From NCBI GenBank assembly GCA_013239625.1, contig MU053352.1, positions 107,485 to 171,484 on the forward strand: 64,000 nucleotides of DNA, in the 5' to 3' direction. How positions within the stretch are numbered: position 1 is the stretch's first letter; every line of letters starts with the position of its first letter. The notes under the pieces are model-generated. The model saw only the letters and a list, made by a program, of their open reading frames with translations, was not told the DNA's origin and ran no database searches. The position numbers and the translations under genes were made by a program. The DNA is from Lama guanicoe. Taxonomy: Eukaryota. This document shows positions 237 through 64,000 of the stretch, in pieces.

Positions 237-331
237 GGAGGGAAGGGTATAGCTCAGTGGTAAAGTGTGTGCTTAGCATGCACAAGGTCCTGCGTTCAAT
301 TCCAGTACCTCCATTAAAAATAAAGAAATAA
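237..331 (+). mobile_element. tRNA-derived SINE (camelid Vic-1 type)
   Basis: GGGTATAGCTCAGTGGTAAAG (A box)...GTTCAATTCC (B box)...ACCTCC then A-rich tail. Confidence 0.85.
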
Positions 332-6549: not shown

Positions 6550-50223
<43,674 letters not shown>

Positions 50224-50299: not shown

Positions 50300-50308
50300 G
50301 GGGAGGGG
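50300..50308. promoter_or_regulatory. Proximal Sp1/GC box
   Basis: GGGGAGGGG next to the HNF1 site. Confidence 0.65.
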
Positions 50309-50455
50309 ACCCGTGAAGTCTGGCAGCAAGGCCGTCGTGCAGGGGCCCCTGCGCTGCACCCTCGGGCAGCAGCTCTGAGTGCAGAAGGAGGAGTTGCTGG
50401 CAGAGTTATTGGCAGGGAGGCAGCAGGCAGGTAGGTAAGGGCTGTCCTGCAACCT

Positions 50456-50463
50456 GGGAGGGG
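50456..50463. promoter_or_regulatory. Distal Sp1/GC box
   Basis: GGGAGGGG about 215 nt upstream of the inferred TSS; two Sp1 sites plus HNF1 is the known SGLT1 minimal promoter layout. Confidence 0.55.
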
Positions 50464-51294
50464 CCAGCCAGGGGGTGGTGCCCGCCTGGCACAAAGGCCT
50501 GCTGTGCTCCCAGAGCGTGCACTGGCCAGGCAACCTCTCCTGGCCTCCTGTGGGGCCACACCCAGACCCCATTGAGGAGCCAGGCTGCCTGGTGCTGGAG
50601 GCCTAGAAGCTTCAGATCACCTGCCACCTGCCCTTGGACCAGTCTTCTGTTCTCTGTGGACCTGGCTTCTCCATGTCTAAAATGGGCCCAGGACTGTTCC
50701 AGGAATCAGCCAAGTTCTCGGTCTCTATGGAGAGCATTCTGAGGAGGACCAGAAGTTGTCGGGGGAGAAAATCAGCACGATGGAAGCATCTTTGGCCACA
50801 GGGATGGCCACTCACCCATCCACCTTTCTGTCTCCCCCTCTATAGCCTGCAGCCCCCAGGAGCACTGTTACCCCCACTGTAAGGAGGAGGAAACTGAGAC
50901 TGGGAGGGGATCCCACTGGGAGCTATTTCCTTGCCCTGTGCCTCACCCAGTAATGTGATTTGGGGCCCTTCCCAGGCAGGCAGGAGGGAGGGAAGATACT
51001 AGAAAATCCCTCCCAAGGAGCTCATCAAACTCTGACCCCTTCTCACCTGTGAGCCTTACCCCACACACAGCCAATCGCCACCCATCCATCCACCTGAGAC
51101 TGAGGCCGGAACACAAAAACCAGACTCAAAAATCCTTGGGCAACGGAAAGACCCACAAAGATTACAATGGGGACAGCAAGTCATTTTATGTATTCAACAA
51201 ATACCAGTTGTGCATTTGTCTAGGCATTAGGGGCACAAAGTGAGCAAGACACGGGTAGTCCCCGCCTTTTAGAAGCTTAAAACACATACACATG

Positions 51295-51445
51295 TTCAGT
51301 GGGCAAAGAGTTTCCTTTTGGAGTGATGAAGATGTTTAGGAACTAGATAGAGGTGGTGGTTGTATGCACTTGAGGCCACTGAATTATTCACTTTAAAATG
51401 GTTAATTTCATATTATGTAAATCTCACCTCAATTCAAAAAAAAAA
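51295..51445 (+). mobile_element. L1MB 3' tip
   Basis: agagtttccttttggagtgatgaagatg...cactgaattattcactttaaaatggttaatttcatattatgt + A tail. Confidence 0.8.
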
Positions 51446-51718
51446 CATATGCAAGGCAACTGGCATGGAGATAATGAAAATGTAATCCCCACCCAGATCA
51501 TTTTTCTGCATTCTAAAAGTTTCATGAGTTTCATGTGTTCAACAAGTAATTTGCACAGAATGAAAAGTTGGGCTTATTTTGCCGTCAGAAGAACATTCTC
51601 TCCCATCTAATGGCTGGCCCTGATAATCCTGCATTGAGAAACTCCATTCATTCATTTAGAGTATCAATGCTACAGCAGGTACCAGGGGTTACAGACTTGA
51701 ACAGGACACAGTCTCTGC

Positions 51719-52240
51719 AATGAACATGGGCATGCAGATACCTCTTTGAGATGCAGATTCCATTTCCTTGGAATATACGCCAAGAAGTGGGATTGCCGGA
51801 TCATATAGTATTCTATTTTTTAATTTTTTGAAGATCCTCCATACTGTTTTCCATAATGGCTGCACCAGTTTACATTGCTGCCAACTCCACATCTCTGCCA
51901 ACAATTGTTATCACTTGTCTTTTTGATGATAGCCGTTCTAAGAAGTGTGGGATGATATTTCAGTGGTTTTGACTTGCATTTCCCTGATGATTAGTGATGT
52001 TGAGCACCTTTCCATGTACCTGTTGGCTCTTCGTATACTGTTTGAGTTCCTTATATTTTTTTAGATACTAAAGATGGTAACTATGTGAGATAATGAATAT
52101 GTTAATTAACTTGATCGTGGTCATCATTTTACAATGTATCTGAATATCAAATCATCACATTGTACACCTCAAATATATACAATTTTGTCAATTACACCTC
52201 AATAAAGTGAGGGGGAAGAAGAAAATACTCACCAAAAAAA
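51719..52240. mobile_element. L1MA with inverted 5' part
   Basis: Antisense ORF2-end segment 51719-52065 joined to a sense 3' tip 52070-52240 ending cctcaataaa + A-rich tail. Confidence 0.8.
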
Positions 52241-53030
52241 AGACACAAATTCTGCCTTGGGGCCCTCTCAGTCCCTCAAGGAAAGTTTACATCTGATGTG
52301 CATGTGCTGTTCCCTATGCAAGGATGCTTTCTCCCCATTCGTCACCTGAATAACTCTTGTAATTCTTCAATCTCAGCTTTAATTTCCTCCAAGAGGCTTC
52401 CTAACCTGCACCCACCCTTAGCAAGAAAGCTAAGAGAGAACCCCACTCTCAAGCTCTGTTCTTGTCCTCCCCATACTTGTCTCGATTTTCAATTGACATT
52501 TAGGTGTATAACTATATGTTTAATGTCTACATTCCCCACTAGACTATTAGCTTCGTGAAGGTAGCACCCATGTCTTCCTGCCATCGCTGTGCCTAGGACT
52601 GGGGCTGAGATATAGCCGATGCTCAATAAACATCAACTGAATGAATAAACGAATTAAAATAATGAACACACGCAATCATAACATCACAAATGGTTGAGAC
52701 AAGCTGAGGCAGAACATGCTTAATCTGTCTCACTAAGGGATTTAGACAGAGGGGCAAAAGAAATCATCATCAAGAGGGGATATTTGCACTGAGTCTTCAG
52801 GGATAAGTAGGAGTTCCTGAGGCGATACAGTTGAGGAAAGGTTTTGAGACGTGAGAGAACACACTATGCATATTCAGGGAGCGGTAAGTGCTTGTGGTCT
52901 ACTTGGCTGGGCAGAACACCCAGAGATAAGGCCAGAGGTGTGGGCAGGAACTGGACCGACCACAGGGGACCTTGTGTGTCATATTAAACATCCTGGAATT
53001 CTTCCCGAGAACGCTGGGGAGCTAGTAAAA

Positions 53031-53208
53031 CAGGTGTTCCTGGTCTTAGACCCATGGATGCCTTAGAGGTGGGTTTTGAACATCCGTGGACTCCCTAAAA
53101 TTGTATGCATAACTGTGATCAGATTAGTGTTTTCTTGGCAAGAGGGCCCATAGCTTTCATCAGCTTCTCAGAAAGATCAGTGACTCAAAAAAAGATGAAG
53201 AACCGCCA
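53031..53208. mobile_element. hAT-Charlie fragment (Charlie4-like)
   Basis: gagggcccatagctttcatcagcttctcaga...gtgactcaaaaaaagatgaagaacc. Confidence 0.65.
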
Positions 53209-53441
53209 CCTTCCCCGACCATCCTAACTAAAACAGCCCCACCCCCACCCCAGCTCAGGACTTTCATAGTACTCATAACAGAGTTGATTTGTTTCCTTGT
53301 TTTTTCCCCATCTTCCCCTCTGTGAGAGCAGACCGTGTCTTTCTTATTCAGGAGTCTATCTCCTGTGCCTAGAACGCATGGCCTGGAAGTTACAGAACTC
53401 AATAAACATCTGCTGACTAAACAAATCTTACTACAGGTGTT

Positions 53442-53945
53442 TGGTTTTTTTTTCATTGTGGTACACATAACATAAAAGTTACCATCATCGCCTTTTTTAA
53501 GTGGCCAGTTCAGTTGCACTAAGTCCGTTCACATTGTTGTGTACAATTACCATCTTCCATCTGCAGAACTCCTCTCATCTTGCAAAACTGAAACTCTGTA
53601 CCTATTAAACACTAACTTTCCATCCTCCCACCCCAACCCAGCCCTTGGCACCCACCATTCTACTTTCTGTCTCTGTGGCTTTGACTACCCTAGGAACCTC
53701 ATGTAAGTGGAATCGTATTATAGTATTTGTCCTTTTGTGACTGCCTTATTTCACTTAGCATAATGTCATCAAGGTTCATCCATGTTGTAGCAGGTGTCAG
53801 GATTTCCTTCCTTTTTAAGGCTGAATAATTCCTTTGTATAAATATACCACACTTTGCTGATTCATTTACTCATTGGACTTTTGGGTCACTTTTACCTCTT
53901 AGCCATTGCAGCCATCGCTGCTGTGAACATGAGTGTCTAGGAATC
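53442..53945 (-). mobile_element. L1MB 3' end
   Basis: catcttgcaaaactgaaactctgtacctattaaac...ttatttcacttagcataatgtcatcaaggttcatccatgttgtagca. Confidence 0.88.
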
Positions 53946-54599
53946 TTCTGATCCTTTTTGAAATAAGAGTCATCACAGGATGAGTTGATGGATGAATGGA
54001 CGGTTGGATGGTGGATGGATGGGTAGATGGATGGGTGACAGATGAATGGATAGAGAAATGAAAGAGCTCTAGACTGAGTTAGATCTATTTCCTGTCCTAA
54101 CTGTGACGCTTCCCACCTGCATGACACACCAGAGAGACTGTGAAGTAACAGTGACCTCATTGTAATAATGGTATTGAGTTAAAAGGAATTTCAGAATATT
54201 TATAAAGATGAATAAGTCTGTGCTATTTCATGATCACAGCTGGCGTGTATCAGTAACAGGATATGTACAAGACCATAAGGTGTTGCTGGCAAAGAAGAAA
54301 GGGGTTTCCCAGAGTGGTAATCCTAGGAAGGAAGGGAGTGATTCACATTGGGTAAAAACCACATTTAGTACCAAATGTGGAACAACCATAACATCAGTCA
54401 AAACAGTAAAAACAGAGTCACTAAAAATTCAAGACCTTGAGCCACAAACGATGTTGACAGTGAATGGGTCCAACTGCCAAAGAAAATGAAGAGTGCAGAG
54501 ACGAGGCCTTGAGGATACTGAGCTCTGCTTTAAACTGGCCTCCAGGATTTTCTTATCCATAGTCTCACCATCTACAGCAATTGAAAACCAATCCTAACA

Positions 54600-56500
54600 G
54601 AAGAATGAACCAAAAATACAACCAGTTCACATAAAAGGAAATACAAATGGCATATAAATTTAGGAAAAGATATCCAGTCTCTCTCTAATAAAGCAAATGC
54701 AAATTAAAACTATAGTAAGATACTACTTTTTTACCTCTCAGACTGGAAAAGATCCCAAATTGAAAATATATTGTGTTATAAGAGTAAACATTTACTCTCA
54801 CACATTACAGGTGGAAGTATAAATTGGTATCAACTTCGACACAGTAATTTGAGAACGTCTATCAAAACTATGTGAAGAGAATGAGGAGACAAGCCACAAA
54901 CTGGGAGAAAATATTTGTAAAAGACACATCTGATAAAAGACTGTTAGCCAAACTATACAAAGAAATCTTAAGTCTCAACAATAAGAAAATTAACAACTCA
55001 ATCTGAAAAATGGGCAAAAGATTTGAACAGATGCCTGTTCAGGTATATGGATATCTTCTGATATGCAAATAAGCATATGAAAAGATGCTTAAGATCATAC
55101 GTCATTAGAGAGGTGCAAATTAAAACAACAGTAAGATACCACTACACACCTATTGGTATGGCCAAAGTCCAAAACACTGACAAAACGCTGACAGGAATGT
55201 GGATCAACAGAAAGTCTCATTCATTGTTGGTGAGAATGTGGTGGTGATGCCACAGTTTGGCAGTTTCTTACAAAACCAAACATAGTCCTACCATATGACC
55301 CAGTAATTGTGCTCCTAGGTATTTACCCAAAGGAGTTGAAAACATGTTTGCAAAAAAAAAAAAAAGAAAAGAAGAGAAACATGCACGCAGATGTTTATAG
55401 CATGACTGCTAAAATTTGGAAGCAACAAGAGGTCCTTCAGTAAGTGAATGGATAAATAAACTGTGGTACAACCAAATGATGGAATATTATCCAGTGATTA
55501 AAGAAATACTCTATCAAGCCAAGAAAAGATATGGAGGAGTGTCAAATGTATATCAGTAAGTGAAAGAAGCCAATCTAAAAAGGCAATTACTATGTAATTC
55601 CAACTATATGATTTTCTGGAAAAGGCAAAACTATGGAGACATTAAAGAGATCCACAATTGCCAGGGTTAGAGAGGAAAGCAGAATGAATAGGAGATGCAG
55701 AATTGTTAAGGCAGTGAAATTATTCTGTGCAATGCTCCAGTGGTGGATACTTGTCATTATGCATCTATCAAAACTCATAGAATGTGCAATGCCAAGAGTG
55801 AGCCCTAATGTGAACTGTGGACTTTGAATGGTAATGATGTATCAGTGTAAGTTCATTGATGGTAACAAATGTACCATTCTGGTGCAGAATGTTGACAGTG
55901 ACTGAGACTGTGTATGGGGGGAGAGGGGTACATGGAAATTCTCTGTACTTTCAGGTCAGTTTTGCTATGAACCTAAAACCACTCTAAAAAAATCTATCTA
56001 GAAATTATACATGCACATACCCTTTGACCCAACAACAAAGAATTTATGCTACAGATAGGCGTACATCAGGGCAAATGACATATGTTCAAAGTTATTTATT
56101 GCAGCACTATTTGTAATGGGCAAAGATTAGAAGTAACCTAAATGCCCATCCATCAAGGACAGGTTAAATATATTACAGTTTATCTACTTAACGGAATAAT
56201 ACTATGCAGTCATTAAAAATAAAAAGGAAAGCTCTTGTATATTAATATGTATTGATCTCAAAGATTTTTTTTTTAGGTTAAAAAAGCAAAGTGTGCAAAA
56301 CAACATGTAGTATGCTAAAACTGGTGTAAAATGTCAGGGGGTCAGGGAAGAATATTGGTACATGTTTACTTACATGTACAGTTTAAAAATCTCTTGGATC
56401 TCTAAAACTGGCAAACTGGCAAAATTGATGGCCTTCAGGGAGAATATTTGGATGACTAGGAGAATTTGTATATATATGTTTATATACTTTATGAACCATG
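54600..56500 (+). mobile_element. Nested L1s: L1MC-like (~54872-56000) inside an older L1ME-like element
   Basis: The old element breaks at ctatcaaaactat and resumes at gaaattatacatgcacataccctttgaccc; the inner element ends gtgagccctaatgtgaactgtggacttt...gaacctaaaaccactctaaaaaa. Confidence 0.8.
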
Positions 56501-57236
56501 AGAATGGATTGCTTATTGGATCTGTAGATAGTAAGAAGGAAGGAGGGAGGGAAAAAGGAAGGAAAGAAAGACAATCACAACACTAAGATCACTGAATATT
56601 CAAGTATTGGGGGACCAAAGAGATCTTCCAACTTGACTCCATAATACATTCGCTGGTTCCACAAATAACTCTTGAGTGTCCTATACATGCCTGTCACTGT
56701 CCCAGGTGCTGCAGACAGCAAGATGCAAAGACGTAGGGGTGTGCAATTCCAATGGGGAAAGACCTTACTAATGAGAAACTGAGACCCAGAGAATGGACAG
56801 ACCTTGTCAAAGTTGCCCAGACTGTTGGTGGAAGAGCTAGGGCTGAAACCCAGGCCTGCAGCCTCCTGTCTGGTTTTATTATCTACCCTGGGCTTAAAGT
56901 ACAGTGAAGGAAATAGACTTGATTACGCAGGTAATGCTTACAAGTGTAAAGATAAGTGAACCACAAAACTGGCTTCCCAGAAAGAGATTTCCTCTTCTAC
57001 ATATGCTTTCTAAAGGTCATAATCATTGCCAGACAATGGAAAGACCTCCCTATGCCACAGAATACTACCTTCAACATCCATTCACAGAAACAAATATTTA
57101 GGAGTCATTATAAATTAACACTGTTCACACACACACACCCCTTTCCAAATGATGATTTGTGTGCCCTTACTGAGACACCAAAAATGCTAAGACAAATTAA
57201 TAAGGCACAGATTCAGCTTAAAAAATGATCTTCTGA

Positions 57237-57561
57237 TGAAAACAAAAACAAACAAACAAACAAACAAAAACAAAGCATAAATACAGGACAGAAATAGACT
57301 CATAGACAGAGAATACAGACTTGTGGTTGCCAGGGGGGTGGAGGGTGGGAAGGGATAGACTGGGATTTCAAAATTGTAGAATAGATAAACAAGATTACAC
57401 TGTATAGCACAGGGAAATATACACAAAATTTTATGATAACTCACAGAGAAAAAAATGTGACAATGAGTGTGTATATGTCCATGAATGAAAAATTGTGCTG
57501 AACACTGGAATTTGACACAACATTATAAAAATGATTATAAATCAATAAAAAATGTTAAAAG
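57237..57561 (+). mobile_element. Young 5'-truncated L1 3' end with TSD
   Basis: TT/AAAA site; TSD aaaaatgatct-tctga (57221-57236) / aaaaatgatctgtctga (57562-57578); reverse complement closely matches 7586-7900. Confidence 0.9.
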
Positions 57562-58769
57562 AAAAATGATCTGTCTGAGCAAAGGGAAAAACCGAACCTA
57601 TGGTCAAATATCATTGATCCTTGGGATTTTCTCAGGATCTTAGGTAAACTCCTCAACTGGGGTTTTCCAAGTTTGGGAAATCCTATCAGGAATCAAGAAG
57701 AACAAAGGAGTGTTCATTCTCACTACACTGAATGACAAAGATGTAACAGTCAAAGGCCTAGGGCTTAGCCTAATGTTTTCGGCTGACTTTGATTAAAGTA
57801 TCACAGAACATGTACCAAAATGAAACCGTATATATACAAACACATATAAACATCCCCACAAATATATACCCACAAAGACGTACACACAAACATCCACCCC
57901 AAACACAGAATAAAGATCTGAGATAAAGAACTATCCATTCTAAATCGGCTACACTTGGGGAAAGAACTACTGTGATGATGTTTCAAAATGCAAAATCCTG
58001 AAATCTTTGTCTTTGGAGTGATTCTGTGATTGGCGGAGGGCCTGCTGTTTGACCGTACAGCTTCATATTGGCGCTATATATTGACCCTTGCTGAGACTGC
58101 AACTGCTGATGGGTGAGAAGAGGTGGTTCAGGTTGTGTGGGAAAAGTGGAGAAGCCAAAGTGAGATTTTTTTATATGGGCTTAGGCCATGGATCCAACCG
58201 TAAGGCCTCATTTTTAATGGAGGCCCACCACAAAGCCCATTTCCTCTGCCATCCAGGCAGAAGTCATCACAGGTCCCAGTTTAATCTCTTGTTTTGACTC
58301 ATCCTGAGTCACTCCCTGGTTGTTTCCCACTTCCACTCCTTGAGAAAGCACTTGGGTAGGAGATTTTCAGTATTCTCCAGTTATTGTTTCATGTGAAAGA
58401 GCTATGAGCTCTTTGGGGCAAAGGCCTCTTCAAATTACCGACTGTCATTAACATTGTGATTATGCCCACATAGCCCTGATATGGGAGGGCTGTCTTTGCT
58501 TTCTTGAGCACTGGGAGCTGCTGGTGGGTGGCCGTGAGGGCCAATTCCTTTACTGCCTGAATCAGGCATGTGTCAGGTTTTCAATTTCCACAACCTCTAA
58601 GAATAACAGGCTTTTCAGGCCAAAAGGGGTTAAGAGCATTCAACTTACCCCCTCGTTTTATAGTAGAAATTGTGACTCAAAGAGGAAGGGTGATTTGTCC
58701 AAGGACATGGCCTGATCTCTGAGCTCCTAATCCAGTGCTCTGCATTCTTCTCCAAAAACTTTGTTCAGA

Positions 58770-59730
58770 ACAAACTCTTACAATTTCTTATGAAGTTAAA
58801 CCTACACCTAGCCTATGACCCTGCAATTCCACCTGTAAGTATTTATTTGAGAGAAGTGAAAACATACGCTATGGTCTAAATATGTCCCCCCACAAAATTC
58901 ATATGTTGAATTCTAACCCCTAAGGGTACTGGTATTTGGAGGTGGGGCCTTTGGGAGGTGATTAGGTCATGAGGGTGATGCACTCACGAGTGGGATCAGT
59001 GCCCTTATAAAAGAGGCCCCAGCTAGGCCTTTCCACCAGGTAAGGACACAGTGAGAAGATGCCAGCCCTGAACTAGGAAGAGGGCCTTCACCAAAATACA
59101 ACCATGCTGGCAACCTGGTCTCAGACTTCCAGCCTCTGCAACTATGAGAAACAGACTAAGACAACACATATCCACAAAAAGACATACACAAGTGCTTACA
59201 ACAACTTTATCTATAATAGCCAGAAATTAAATACAAACAACCCAAATGTCCATTAACAGGTAAATTGATAAACAAATGGTGGTATATCCATTCAATGGAA
59301 TACTACTCATCAGGAAAAATGAACAAACTACACAGTACAACCTGGATGAGTCTCATAGACATTGAATCAGGAAAGTAGGGCAAACATAAGAGAGTACATA
59401 CTGTATTATTTCTTTTGTATATAGTTCTAAAAGAGGCAAAACTAATCATTAGTCTATAGTGATAGAAAACAGAACATAGTTGTCTAGGGCTGGAGAGGGT
59501 CAATTGGCTGCAGAGACATATGAGAGAAACTTCTGGGGCACAGGCAATGTCCTATATCTTGATTGAGATGGTGGTTACATGGGTATAAAATTTGTCAAAA
59601 ACTCACCAAACTGTCAATAAAAAATTAAATTTTTAAATAATTTTTTAAAACTCACCAAGCTGTACATTTAAAATCTGTTTATTTTACTGCATGTAAACGG
59701 TACCTTAATAAAGTTAATTAATAAAAAGAT
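58770..59730 (+). mobile_element. Old L1 3' region (L1MC/ME-like) interrupted by an MLT1 LTR
   Basis: ctatgaccctgcaattccacc...[LTR]...aacaacccaaatgtccattaacaggt...tccattcaatggaatactactca...accttaataaagtt. Confidence 0.8.
58867..59163 (+). mobile_element. MaLR solo LTR (MLT1A-like) with a 3' internal deletion
   Basis: gctatggtctaaatatgtcccc...aaattcatatgttgaa...ggaggtggggcctttgggaggtgattaggtcatgaggg...cagactaagaca; TSD-like acata/acaca. Confidence 0.9.
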
Positions 59731-60309
59731 AAGCCCTTACACTTTCACTGCTCCTTTCTGTTCACACGGCACTTTCCAACCTCTCACCTCACAATCATCT
59801 CACAACAGCCTTGTGACATCAGCAAGGTAAGGCTGAGGACACCATCTCCATTTTACAGGAGAGAAAACTAAGGCTGAGAAGCAGCAGCAGCCTCAGCCAC
59901 CTGGGCCAGGTACTCAAAGCACTTCTGTGCTCACAGGACCTGGAGAGCATAGAGTTGAACCCTCACTTGTCAGACAGACACACTGTGGCTCAGAGGGACA
60001 GGAACTTGTGAGTCCTCCAGCAAATCAGTGGCAGGACTGGGACTTGGGCCCTAGGCCCCCAGCTCCTGGCTCAGTGTGCTCCCCCACCCACTGCACTTTT
60101 GCCCCCCTCTTCTTCTGTCTCAGGCCGGGGCCTGCTTCTGCTGCCTGAGAGGCCCTCAAATCCCTCCAGGGGCTCCAAGCCTGACTTCCTCACGCTAAGC
60201 CCCAAATCCCAGTTCTGCACTCTTCCTCACGTGACTTCTGGGCTCCTCTGGCCCTGCCGTCAGCTAGTTGTCAGCCCTCTCAAGAGTTATCCACAAGGTG
60301 GTTTCTTAC

Positions 60310-60835
60310 AAAGAACTCCCAGCATTATTCCACCCAAGGACACCTGCCACCAATGAAAGAGTAAGAATTTAGTGATCAAAGAAAAAATTTAAAGAAGATT
60401 AAAGTCCGATCAGTTTCCACTTATAAAATTGTCAAATGTCGTTGAGGTCTACCCCAATGGAGATTTTTCTGTAGACCTACATCATTGGGAACGCCTCATA
60501 GAGTAAATACATGGTTTCTTTTACTCACAGAATTATGTGAGTAAATTATGTGTTAGACCTGTGGGGAAGAACTATAAGGCAGAGTAGCAACACTATGACT
60601 TGACTGTCAAACTTCTTTTATCTTAGGTATTGGTGTATCCCAATGATCTGTACTATTCTAGGGTGTGATAGCTTAGGGGTGAACATGATTTGAACTTATA
60701 CAAGTTTAGAGGTTGTCTAAAATTCAGAACCAGGCAGATCCATGTACTCTGACCCTAAACATGGCCCTAAAGCAAAGTACTTGAAGAAATTGGATCCCTA
60801 AGATTACAGGTGGGGAATTTTGGAAGTCTGTCCAT
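60310..60835 (+). pseudogene. Fragment copy of snoRNA host transcript (TAF1D-like non-coding region) retaining the SNORA18 intron
   Basis: Donor-like GTAAGA at 60361 and acceptor-like ttcttttatcttAG ending 60626 bracket the snoRNA; downstream sequence resembles recalled TAF1D-derived sequence; outer limits approximate. Confidence 0.6.
60441..60584 (+). pseudogene. SNORA18: SNORA18 (ACA18)-like H/ACA snoRNA copy, probably non-functional
   Basis: GTTGAGGTCTACCCCAATGG...CATTGGGAACGCCTCAT hairpin, H box AGAGTA (60500-60505), then ...TTTACTCACAG...GTTAGACCTGTGGGGAAG; matches SNORA18 as recalled; ACA box reads GCA (60579-60581); ~14-nt insertion in hairpin 2. Confidence 0.8.
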
Positions 60836-61005
60836 ATTCCGGAGAACACTGTGTATGTGTGTTAGGGTGTGTTAGCCAGAACAAATCCTAAGAAGTAGGA
60901 GAAAGGAGAGAAAGCATTCAGGACAGGGGAGCAGGGCCAAAGGAGAGGGCAAAATTCAAGGCCTTGCACCAAACCCCCACTCCCTGAAACCCAGAAAATG
61001 GTCCT

Positions 61006-61150
61006 CAGGAGACCATTGTTAGAGCCTCATTAGGCGATAGTTGCTATCATTTATTGAGCACTGTGTTAAGACAGGAGACCATTGTTAGAGTAATAGCAAA
61101 AGAGCCTCATTAGGCGATAGTTGCTATCATTTATTGAGCACTGTGTTAAG
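61006..61150. repeat. Local tandem duplication (65 bp + 79 bp copies)
   Basis: 61006-61070 equals 61072-61150 except for 14 bp missing from copy 1. Confidence 0.95.
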
Positions 61151-63074
61151 TGCTTTACAATCATTATCTCCTTTAATCCTCACAGCACCTCTATGGGATA
61201 GGTGCTAATATCCTCAATTTGTACTTAAGGAAACTGAGACAGAGAGATTAAGTAACTCATGAAAGACAGAAATAGAATTTCAACCCATTGCTTTTAACCA
61301 CACATTAAAAATATGTGCCTACAAAGAATATGTATGTCAAATCACTGCATTACACACTTGAAATTTGTATAATTTCATTTGTCAATTATACCTAAATAAA
61401 ACTGAAAAAAAAAGAAAAGAAAAATTGGGCCCAGAGAGGGTGTCTTAAGGAGAAGGGGAAAAAATACCCTAGGAAGGAACTCAAATGCTGAATTCCAGTC
61501 CCTGCACCACCCCTGACTCACTGCATCACCCTGACAAATCTTTTTCTGTCTAATCTACTGCTCCTCTGTGGGGCCATGAGATTCTCACCACCCACCTCCA
61601 CCAACATCACCCTGATTCCTCAGCCCATAGGCTTCCTTCATCCTCTCTGGGGTCCCAGTATCATGCTACTGATCCCCTCTTCCCAAATTTCCAGCTAGGC
61701 CAGACTTAGGCTCTAACTGGGGCCCAAACCTTGATGGCCTGTGGGTGGAGGGGCAGAGAGGAAATTCCTGGGAGCTCTGCTCAGCTCAGGACCCTTGGCT
61801 CTTTTTCTACAACCTTTAGCAAAGCCCATATCTTGAGCCTTATCACATAATGAGTTTGGTACTTTTGTAGGCCAATAAATCACACACTCCCCTCTCAGAT
61901 GGTGCACAATTCAGGTGATAACCTCAGTCATGCCAACATACCCTCCACTGAAAAATGTTTAAGGAAGCAGAGTTTCTAATACTGTTATCACAGCTCCCTG
62001 ATTACACACATGTCACAAAGACATCACAGCTCCTCAGTTACCTCACTGAGGGGCCCAAAGCTGAAGTCTTGCCAAAGTCAGCTGGTCACCCCCAGGAAGA
62101 CAACTGGTCTGCATTTCCAAATATTCTCACCCTGGTTGCAACTTGCTCAGCTTCTTCCAAAGACCTGGAATTCCGTGGCTTGACTGTGAGCCCTGGAAAT
62201 GCCACTAGACATGGCATGACTCATCCTCCACTTCTCATAAATGGGTCACTAAGGCTCAGTGAAACCACATGGCTCAAGTAGAACCAGAACTCCAGCCTTC
62301 TGCCCCCACGCTGCTTCCTTGATGCTTGCCCCATTTCACACTTCAGCTGGTTTCTGGGCCCATGGAGTTGGCCTCTGAAATACCTCTTCTAGTGTTTTCC
62401 TCACCCCTTCCCCTGACAGCCTCCAGACCATCATCCCTCCCGAAACTGTCACTGCAAATCCTTTTGGTCTCCTTCCTCCAAGTCTCCCCTTTCTACAATC
62501 CATCCTGGGCAATGTGCCAGGTCACTCTCAGACCTGAAAATTATCAGGGGCTCTCCTTTCCTGCCAAAGAAAAACCAAAGCCTTGGCCTGGTGTTCGAGG
62601 CCCTTCACCATCTGATGCCAGCTTGCTAACAGCTTCTCATCCCTCTCCACCTCCTCTCCCGACAGACCCTAAGCTTAGCCCAGATCATCTGGTTGTTGAT
62701 CCAGTATCTCTCTTCTACTTCTGCATTTAGCCAGTGCTGTTACCTCCACTGAGTGTGCAGGACAGTCCTGCCCACCACCCACCTTCACCTCCACCTGCCC
62801 AACCTACCTTCTTACAAGGCTTGGTTCAAATGTCCTCTCACCTCAAGAAGCCTTTCCATACTTCATTCCCAAAGGAAGTAATTGCTCCTTCTTTGGGACC
62901 CTGTGAGAGATGGGCCTTAAACCTTAGGTATTTAGATACCTGTTTTCTCTCCTAATAGGATACAAACCTTCTTAAAACCAGAATATGTATTGGTTTGTTT
63001 GTATGTTTCCCACAGGCCCAGCATGGTACCTTTTATTCATTGATTAATTCTTTCATTAATAATTTGCTGAACAG

Positions 63075-63290
63075 AATGTTGGAGTTCAAGCAACCTGAGC
63101 ATGAGTCCAAGCTCTCTCACTTGCTAGTATTATGACCTTGAATAAAGTACTTAACCATTCTAAGCCTCAGTTTTCTGCTCTGAAAAATGGTTCACAAAGT
63201 TATTGTAATGATTAATGAGGTAACATATGGTATTTGCTCAGCACAATGCCTGGAACATACTGAGTATTCAATTAATGAGGCAATACTACT
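63075..63290 (+). mobile_element. MIR SINE
   Basis: tgaccttgaataaagtacttaaccattctaagcctcagttttc...gctcagcacaatgcctggaacatac. Confidence 0.8.
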
Positions 63291-64000
63291 AATAATGAAA
63301 ATAAACCTAGCTCCTGCTGTGTGCCTGGAATTATGGAGACTGCTGGGGATACAGAGATAGATAAAACTAGGCCCACGCCTTTGAAAACTCAGAGACCAGT
63401 CGGGAAGCAGACAACATGGAAAGAGCTGACCTCCGTATCACATAGGGTGATAAGTGCTGTGACAAAGACACCCACAGGTTGCTCTAGAACTTCCAGAAAG
63501 GGCACTGAACTGGGGCTGTGTCCTGGAGGCAGGCGCTCAGGGAAAGCTCTCCAGGAGAGTGATGTGAGCAGTGTCTGGAAAGACCAGTGGTAATGATCCA
63601 GGGCAATGGGGCAAAATGGGTAAGTGGGGTGGAAGGCACAGTATGAGACCAGGAGCACAGAGGCAAGTTGGAGCACCCCAGCACCCTGCACACAGCTGGT
63701 GCTCAATAAATGTCTGCCAAACAAGAGGCAGCCTGAGGTGGAGGGCAGAGCCCTGGGATTCTCTGCCACAGTCACGGCGTGCGACCTTGGGGAAGTCACA
63801 CTCCTGCCCTGAGCTCCCTGTTCTGAGATGATCCGTCAGGTCGACCCCCATTCCATGATGCCAAGATTTGGGAAGGAATGCGGGGCCTTTGGCTGGTGCA
63901 CCCTTGTTCCTCTGAGTCAGGTAGGGGCATGTTTTCACCTACTCAGTTCAGGAGGAGTTTGGCCTAAGAGGCTGGCACCACCCTCTTTAGGTCACACCTG

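What the first reader, a model, noticed from the sequence alone, without database searches (positions are those of the whole stretch)
60310..60835. Displaced SNORA18 still inside its host intron: semi-processed TAF1D-like copy upstream of SLC5A1
Seen: a hairpin-H box-hairpin unit (60441-60584) inside a 266-bp GTAAGA...ttcttttatcttAG segment (60361-60626), flanked by non-repeat sequence, intergenic and pointing away from SLC5A1. Established: SNORA18 is encoded in an intron of the multi-snoRNA host TAF1D, and snoRNAs spread by retroposition. From memory, the downstream sequence (gtattggtgtatccc...gatttgaact...gaaccaggcagatcc...ttgaagaaattggatccc) matches TAF1D-derived sequence. Inference: a copy of a partly spliced host RNA that kept this intron, rather than a bare snoRNA retrocopy. 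I found no poly(A) tail or TSD, so the mechanism is open.
Basis: partly seen in the sequence, partly recalled or inferred. Interest (0 to 1): 0.7.

Follow-up and report, generated by a model that had tools for sequence, protein, structure and literature searches.

The report
Decayed SNORA18–TAF1D snoRNA retrocopy
This is an old, broken DNA copy of an RNA fragment that began at the small nucleolar RNA SNORA18 and ran on into spliced pieces of its host gene, a kind of element described in mammals in 2006, so it is real but ordinary.

Summary
The SNORA18 copy is real (Rfam, 60441-60584, 88.6 bits against a cut-off of 70). It lies 10.2 kb upstream of an SLC5A1-type gene, on the opposite strand.

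The '266-bp host intron' is not supported. In human the intron is 1,231 nt, with the snoRNA 1,029 nt from the donor and 70 nt from the acceptor. In two DNA runs no other copy aligned upstream of 60440.

Related copies cover 60440-60506 and 60616-60840. SNORD5, which a colinear DNA copy should contain, is absent, so at least one downstream intron was spliced out. This is the layout of a Weber type-3 snoRNA retroposon: mature snoRNA 5' end, downstream intron remnant (likely acceptor 60660-61), spliced TAF1D exons. It stops near 60848 with no poly(A) or target-site duplication.

The ACA box reads GCA, a 13-nt insertion distorts hairpin 2, and no host gene was found, so it is probably dead. The parent TAF1D locus could not be aligned directly; the 80-90 nt upstream remain slightly open. 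The scan noted the same class before, also in this genome, but not this locus. Ordinary.

The parts
60441..60584 (+). Decayed SNORA18 (H/ACA) copy; probable 5' end of the insertion
   Evidence: Rfam 88.6 bits, full model; 6 other contigs in run X4 and 5 in X9 cover its 5' half, none upstream of 60440
60500..60505 (+). H box (AGAGTA, fits ANANNA), intact
60520..60555 (+). 13-nt insertion in hairpin 2: AATTATGTG repeated at spacing 13; makes a perfect 10-bp inverted repeat 60520-29 / 60536-45
60579..60581 (+). ACA box position, reads GCA; the other ACA of the model (60574-76) reads ATA
   Evidence: alignment to the Rfam model
60585..60661 (+).
   Evidence: human: 70 nt to the exon, 32 nt to the branch point; AG survey; homologous stretch in other copies (records 2 and 7)
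60662..60700 (+). First downstream host exon (human about 45 nt); its end is inferred at about 60698-60706
   Evidence: 371-132-73-70-51 = 45 nt; records 14 and 22 stop at 60698 and go on for 217 unlike letters
60701..60848 (+). Further spliced host 3' exons, multi-copy in the genome; no SNORD5; ends without poly(A). End point approximate
   Evidence: summed depth up to 414 against 8.5 for the locus alone; pieces end at 60834-60840; 0 Rfam matches at E<=10; no C box
60849..60876 (+). 3' junction; TG-rich stretch with a 13-of-14 copy (60863-76) of internal 60659-72; possible templated filler
   Evidence: family D16; 2 of 992 control tiles and 0 of 500 shuffles as good; noticed post hoc
60422..60440 (+). 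L1-endonuclease-like site (AT|AAAA) 16-17 nt before the snoRNA; possible surviving 5' TSD copy, no partner found
   Evidence: chance 3-15% for the strict motif, up to 27% for the loosest; no second copy with 4 or fewer mismatches at the 3' junction
60352..60440 (.).
   Evidence: 5.7% of the window's 80-mers are as AT-rich; no paralogue laid here in the DNA runs

Best explanation
A non-functional type-3 snoRNA retroposon of SNORA18 that lacks its 3' end. Steps: (1) a TAF1D pre-mRNA was trimmed from the 5' side up to the SNORA18 snoRNP (inferred, Weber's model); (2) the intron stretch downstream of the snoRNA stayed while at least the SNORD5 intron was spliced out (shown indirectly); (3) L1 proteins reverse-transcribed the RNA and inserted it about 10 kb upstream of SLC5A1 (inferred); (4) the poly(A) and 3' TSD were lost by a later deletion or never made (not resolved); (5) the copy then drifted: ACA to GCA, a 13-nt insertion, about 10-20% divergence from other copies (shown). 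No host intron was found for it, so it should not be processed into a snoRNA.
For: Rfam full-length hit. In DNA runs X4 and X9, summed depth equals the locus alone (8.5 and 8.3) over 60150-60439 and jumps to 102-155 at 60440-60497. Other copies carry the same snoRNA + intron + exon order: record 7 is colinear over 60547-60821 with 7 gap letters, and one X4 contig joins 60506 to 60646. Human SNORD5 starts about 166 nt after SNORA18 ends, in the next intron of 232 nt. Here homology runs about 256 nt past the snoRNA with no SNORD5, no C box and 0 Rfam matches. The predicted exon end, 60584+115 = 60699, matches the stop of records 14 and 22 at 60698. An L1-like site lies at TSD distance from the snoRNA start. 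The class is described, and seven human ACA40 copies of this type come from the same host.
Against: No poly(A) and no TSD, both part of the class definition. The parent locus was never aligned directly: no genome is held, and the laying tool drops human-like records, including this locus's own contig right of 60686. The tool also missed surely homologous parts (60527-60613 in X4), so lack of cover upstream is only moderate evidence. Only 28 of 92 pieces and 24 of 79 loose ends were shown. Exon geometry is human, and the SNORA18 and SNORD5 rows use different transcripts (11 and 13 introns). There is a sharp GC drop at about 60360. The L1-like site is weak (3-15% by chance).
Confidence: 0.75

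Rival explanations
1. Copy of an RNA that still held intron sequence upstream of the snoRNA: 60352-60440 is TAF1D intron 7, either as a 5'-truncated piece or, as a whole short intron with its donor at 60361.
For: GC falls from 50-68% to 20-30% at about 60360; only 5.7% of 80-mers are this AT-rich; GTAAG sits at the step. Luo and Li list 5 human retrogenes with 5' flanks. The parent may have been filtered.
Against: The human donor is 1,029 nt upstream. None of 6 (X4) or 5 (X9) other SNORA18 contigs extends 5' of 60440, and the loose ends shown there do not resemble 60412-60443 by eye. GTAAG occurs by chance in 6-9%. Weber found upstream sequence only for U99.
Confidence: 0.15
2. Second-hand copy: a DNA-level duplication or repair-templated capture of another SNORA18 type-3 retrocopy. 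That would explain the missing tail and TSD.
For: No TSD or poly(A). Several sibling copies exist, and one also stops early, at 60821 (records 7, 16, 25). Templated-looking filler at the 3' junction.
Against: No laid record shares flanks outside 60440-60840. The listed sibling pieces differ by about 10-20%, so no close donor was seen.
Confidence: 0.06
3. Colinear DNA duplication of the genomic TAF1D snoRNA cluster.
For: Intron sequence is present and retroposition hallmarks are absent.
Against: SNORD5 should lie at about 60750-60830 and is absent. No other TAF1D snoRNA reaches threshold in the 64 kb.
Confidence: 0.02
4. A working extra SNORA18-like RNA, released from an unannotated plus-strand transcript that diverges from SLC5A1.
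For: H box intact, fold z = -3.46. Low-depth contigs of the locus are in two RNA runs. A human copy, SNORA18L5, is reported as expressed and active (review passage).
Against: ACA box lost, hairpin 2 distorted. RNA-run depth is 2-3 and also covers flanks outside the element, as DNA carry-over would. No coding host found.
Confidence: 0.02

Closest known systems
Type-3 snoRNA retroposons (snoRTs), Weber 2006, PLoS Genet 2:e205, PMC1687206 (parts 1, 2, 3 and 5 of 8 read, plus passages)
   Same: Starts at the mature snoRNA 5' end, keeps the downstream intron, continues into processed host exons; L1-like site at the 5' side.
   Different: No poly(A) tail or TSD; stops inside the 3' exons. ACA18 does not occur in that paper's main text; its .doc supplements could not be read.
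Human ACA40b/c/d/e/i/j/k and ACA18b-e retrogenes, Luo and Li 2007, PMC1802619 (section 11 and passages read)
   Same: Same host (MGC5306; that this is TAF1D is recalled, and fits SNORA40's intron rank 6): a snoRNA intron plus 3' exons retroposed seven times. Four human ACA18 retrogenes are listed.
   Different: Different species and site. The human copies are described with TSDs.
Tailless retropseudogenes, Noll et al. 2015, PMC5322556 (passages read)
   Same: 5'-complete, 3'-truncated, no oligo(A). The 5' flank fits the TT/WAAAAWW target consensus with one mismatch.
   Different: Those are defined by a TSD; none is found here.
Ovine semi-processed pseudogenes RPSAP8 and RPSAP9 with SNORA62, PMC2850357 (passages read)
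   Same: Retrocopy keeping part of a snoRNA-bearing intron; called semi-processed.
   Different: Different host gene and snoRNA; protein-coding exons.

Membership tests
SNORA18 (Rfam RF00425) | Score above the gathering threshold over the full model | tested here: met
   88.6 bits against 70, model 1-132
Functional H/ACA snoRNA | H box (ANANNA) in the hinge | tested here: met
   AGAGTA at 60500-05
Functional H/ACA snoRNA | ACA box 3 nt from the 3' end | tested here: not met
   reads GCA at 60579-81; no ACA in the last 12 nt
Functional H/ACA snoRNA | Sense-strand host intron or own promoter, with expression | tested here: inconclusive
   no coding host; RNA-run contigs at depth 2-3 also cover the flanks; contigs cannot show strand or level
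Type-3 snoRT (Weber 2006) | 5' end at the mature snoRNA 5' end | tested here: inconclusive
   favoured: no paralogue laid 5' of 60440 in the DNA runs, L1-like site 16 nt upstream; parent not aligned directly
Type-3 snoRT (Weber 2006) | Entire downstream intron kept up to the acceptor | tested here: met
   77 nt to AG 60660-61 against 70 nt in human; homologous in other copies. Indirect: no parent alignment
Type-3 snoRT (Weber 2006) | Processed (spliced) downstream exons | tested here: met
   SNORD5 intron absent while homology continues about 256 nt past the snoRNA. Indirect: uses human geometry
Type-3 snoRT (Weber 2006) | Poly(A) tail | tested here: not met
   no window with 10 of 12 A between 60300 and 61403
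Type-3 snoRT (Weber 2006) | 7-19 bp target-site duplication | tested here: not met
   Weber also lists some type-1 snoRTs without a TSD
   disfavoured: 80 nt against 1,029 nt in human, no paralogue cover; this species' intron length is unknown
Tailless retropseudogene (Noll 2015) | 3' truncation flanked by a TSD | tested here: not met
   truncated, but no TSD

The most novel reading that the evidence does not exclude
The element was not made by normal L1 target-primed insertion. It is an RNA-templated patch at a DNA break: a partly spliced TAF1D RNA, possibly still holding about 90 nt of intron upstream of SNORA18, copied without tail or TSD and sealed at the 3' end with filler templated from its own acceptor region. 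It would be a fixed germ-line fossil of break repair using an intron-retention intermediate.
Probability: 0.12. Interest if true: 0.45.

Novelty: new member of a known kind. Interest (0 to 1): 0.15.

Why it matters
Little, beyond annotation. It should be labelled a snoRNA pseudogene, not a SNORA18 gene; Rfam's threshold alone would call it one. With its siblings it shows that snoRNA-headed, spliced TAF1D RNA fragments existed in this lineage's germ line, as in human. It is held in runs labelled as three organisms, so it could serve as a presence/absence marker. Only the missing tail with templated filler is mildly unusual.

Tried and rejected
1. Own genome: not held, so no direct alignment to TAF1D or to an empty site.
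2. Pattern scans for a mammalian TAF1D or SNORA18 locus: 0 matches. One search gave 2 loci (L001, L002), both chance matches of 23-24 nt in 56-61% GC DNA with no Rfam hit. Plasmid BLASTN: no match.
3. TSD searches: only two 9-nt A-rich chance pairs, both with partners more than 470 nt past the end; no second copy of 60425-60440 near the 3' junction. The 16-nt pair 60349/61078 (D13) was rejected because its partner lies in a local duplication about 230 nt away.
4. The A-run at 61404-61424 was rejected as the tail: it is 550 nt away, behind MIR-like and L1-like sequence (repeat names recalled).
5. Frames just upstream of the snoRNA had no Pfam match, TAF1D included (proteins 21, 39, 40).
6. Expression: RNA runs hold 8-22% of the words; the two laid show depth 2-3 on element and flank alike, which is no evidence either way. 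Zero cover at 60846-61000 in the DNA runs is probably the tool's filter.
7. Recalled human exon coordinates were in no paper's main text; one search also gave 0. Supplements of PMC1802619 and PMC8609340 were unavailable; those of PMC10324135 had no hit.
8. A 5-nt difference near 60763 in other copies looked like a donor site but was read as an indel variant, because the following letters still align by eye.
9. No earlier scan note matched this sequence.

Full report
What is there. Rfam places SNORA18 at 60441-60584 on the plus strand, over the full model, at 88.6 bits against a cut-off of 70. The only other hit at threshold in the 64 kb is a tRNA-like SINE head at 243-313. A sodium:solute symporter gene runs on the minus strand (Pfam SSF) with its ATG at 50223. 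I call it SLC5A1 from recalled motifs. The snoRNA copy is 10.2 kb upstream of that ATG and points away. Of 38 long frames in 50300-64000, 37 had no Pfam match and one had a sub-threshold match, so no coding host was found; short exons or a non-coding host are not excluded.

The snoRNA is damaged. The H box is intact, but the ACA box reads GCA and the model's other ACA reads ATA. A 13-nt insertion repeats AATTATGTG and creates a perfect 10-bp hairpin (60520-29 with 60536-45), which reshapes hairpin 2 in the predicted fold. Two CG positions of the Rfam consensus read CA here, as expected for decay in methylated DNA. In human, expressed H/ACA RNAs keep the ACA motif more often than silent ones, 89% against 69% (PMC10234308, passage).

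The proposed intron does not fit. SNORA18 is hosted by TAF1D (PMC4696412, Table 2 passage). In human it sits in intron 7, 1,231 nt long, 1,029 nt from the upstream exon, 70 nt from the downstream exon and 32 nt from the branch point (PMC10234308, supplementary Table S1 row). A GTAAG lies 20-100 nt upstream of 6% of random positions in this window, 9% where the context is AT-rich. Part of the human upstream distance may be primate repeats (recalled), so this species' intron could be shorter.

Other copies define the edges. No genome is held, so I laid contigs of 4 of the 24 listed runs on 60150-61000 at 80% likeness: two probable DNA runs and two RNA runs. In X4 and X9, summed depth equals the locus alone (8.5 and 8.3) from 60150 to 60439. 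It rises to 102-155 at 60440-60497, where 6 and 5 other contigs carry the snoRNA 5' half, and drops back at 60527-60613. It then climbs from 60616 to a peak of 354-414 at 60701-60758 and ends near 60840. So the sequence behind the snoRNA is multi-copy and travels with it. Record 7 is colinear over 60547-60821 (42 differences, 7 gap letters), and its locus is contiguous in DNA over 60670-60821 (records 16 and 25; linked by shared variant letters, my inference). One X4 contig joins 60506 to 60646. That this sequence is TAF1D follows from its linkage to SNORA18 in several loci; it was not aligned to TAF1D itself. Limits: the tool drops human-like records (this locus's own contig right of 60686 is missing from the listed pieces, and depth is 0 from 60846), it missed homologous parts, and it showed 28 of 92 pieces and 24 of 79 loose ends.

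It came through spliced RNA. In human, SNORA18 and SNORD5 together span 371 nt (PMC4234469, section 5). SNORD5 lies in the next intron (232 nt), 51 nt from its upstream exon. That leaves a 45-nt exon ending 115 nt after SNORA18, and SNORD5 starting about 166 nt after it. In the window, homology continues about 256 nt past the snoRNA with no SNORD5: 0 Rfam matches at E up to 10 and no C box even with one mismatch. The predicted exon end is 60699. Records 14 (X4) and 22 (X9) stop at 60698 and go on for 217 unlike letters, with only 8 differences and 1 gap in 83. I read these as the intron-bearing parent; their further letters were not shown, so this is inference. The two table rows use different human transcripts (11 and 13 introns).

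The ends. A loose end at 60835 in another copy still resembles the window by eye to about 60848; there the window leaves. There is no A-rich run until 61404 and no TSD. An L1-like site, AT|AAAA, lies 16 nt before the snoRNA, at typical TSD distance, but chance gives this in 3-15% of positions (up to 27% for the loosest motif in AT-rich DNA). It also fits the tailless-retropseudogene target consensus with one mismatch (PMC5322556, passages). Against a start at 60441, GC drops sharply at about 60360 and only 5.7% of 80-mers are as AT-rich. At the 3' junction, 60863-76 repeats internal 60659-72 at 13 of 14 letters; 2 of 992 control tiles and 0 of 500 shuffles did as well. I noticed this after the fact, so it is a hint of templated filler, no more.

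Known kind. Weber's type-3 snoRTs start at the mature snoRNA 5' end and carry the whole downstream intron, processed 3' exons and a tail. Only U99 copies had upstream sequence, and extragenic copies are called dead on arrival (PMC1687206, parts 1, 2, 3 and 5 read). Luo and Li list four human ACA18 retrogenes and seven ACA40 copies with host intron and 3' exons from the same host (PMC1802619, section 11 and passages). Sheep RPSAP8 and RPSAP9 are similar (PMC2850357, passages). TAF1D makes much NMD-sensitive RNA (PMC4233243, one passage), a plausible source of such fragments. H/ACA copies spread mainly by retroposition (PMC8178906, passages). This element works like a type-3 snoRT but fails two defining features (tail, TSD), so I file it as a 3'-truncated relative. 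I saw no paper on this locus in the listings (the longer lists were shown only in part). The unreadable supplements of Weber and of Luo and Li may hold SNORA18 cases.

Distribution and expression. Fifteen of 24 listed runs, labelled as three organisms, hold 86-96% of the stretch's words. The two laid differ from the window by 1 in 537 and 2 in 528 letters. RNA runs show the locus at depth 2-3, on flanks as well, which does not show transcription. One human copy, SNORA18L5, is reported as functional (PMC9454744, review passages), so function is not absurd in general, but nothing here supports it.

Verdict. Observation partly confirmed; interpretation partly supported. Best reading: dead, 3'-truncated type-3 snoRNA retroposon of SNORA18/TAF1D (0.75). 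New member of a known kind; interest 0.15.

Noticed in passing
window 60701-60758: Summed contig depth is about 40-48 times that of the locus alone in both DNA runs, suggesting a large family of TAF1D 3'-exon retrocopies in this genome. Summed depth is not a copy number.
   Followed up: partly
window 240-330 (+): tRNA-derived SINE with an A-rich tail (Rfam tRNA 36 bits). From recall it resembles the camelid Vic-1 SINE; no call confirms this.
   Followed up: no
window 61006-61150: Local tandem duplication: two identical 50-nt copies at spacing 80 and two identical 19-nt copies at spacing 66, one unit lacking 14 nt (D1 and D5). Looks like the head of a MIR (recalled).
   Followed up: no
window 57144-57241 (+): Weak C/D-box-like Rfam match (snoU6-53, 22 bits, E 0.3, below the cut-off of 36); probably chance.
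   Followed up: no
window 59130-59725 and 61300-61430: L1-like 3' fragments flank the region (names recalled); the A-run at 61404-61424 follows AATAAA at 61395 and belongs to the second.
   Followed up: partly
records 7, 16 and 25 (match window 60547-60821): A second SNORA18 + intron + spliced-exon locus whose match also stops early, at 60821; whether it too lacks a tail was not seen.
   Followed up: no
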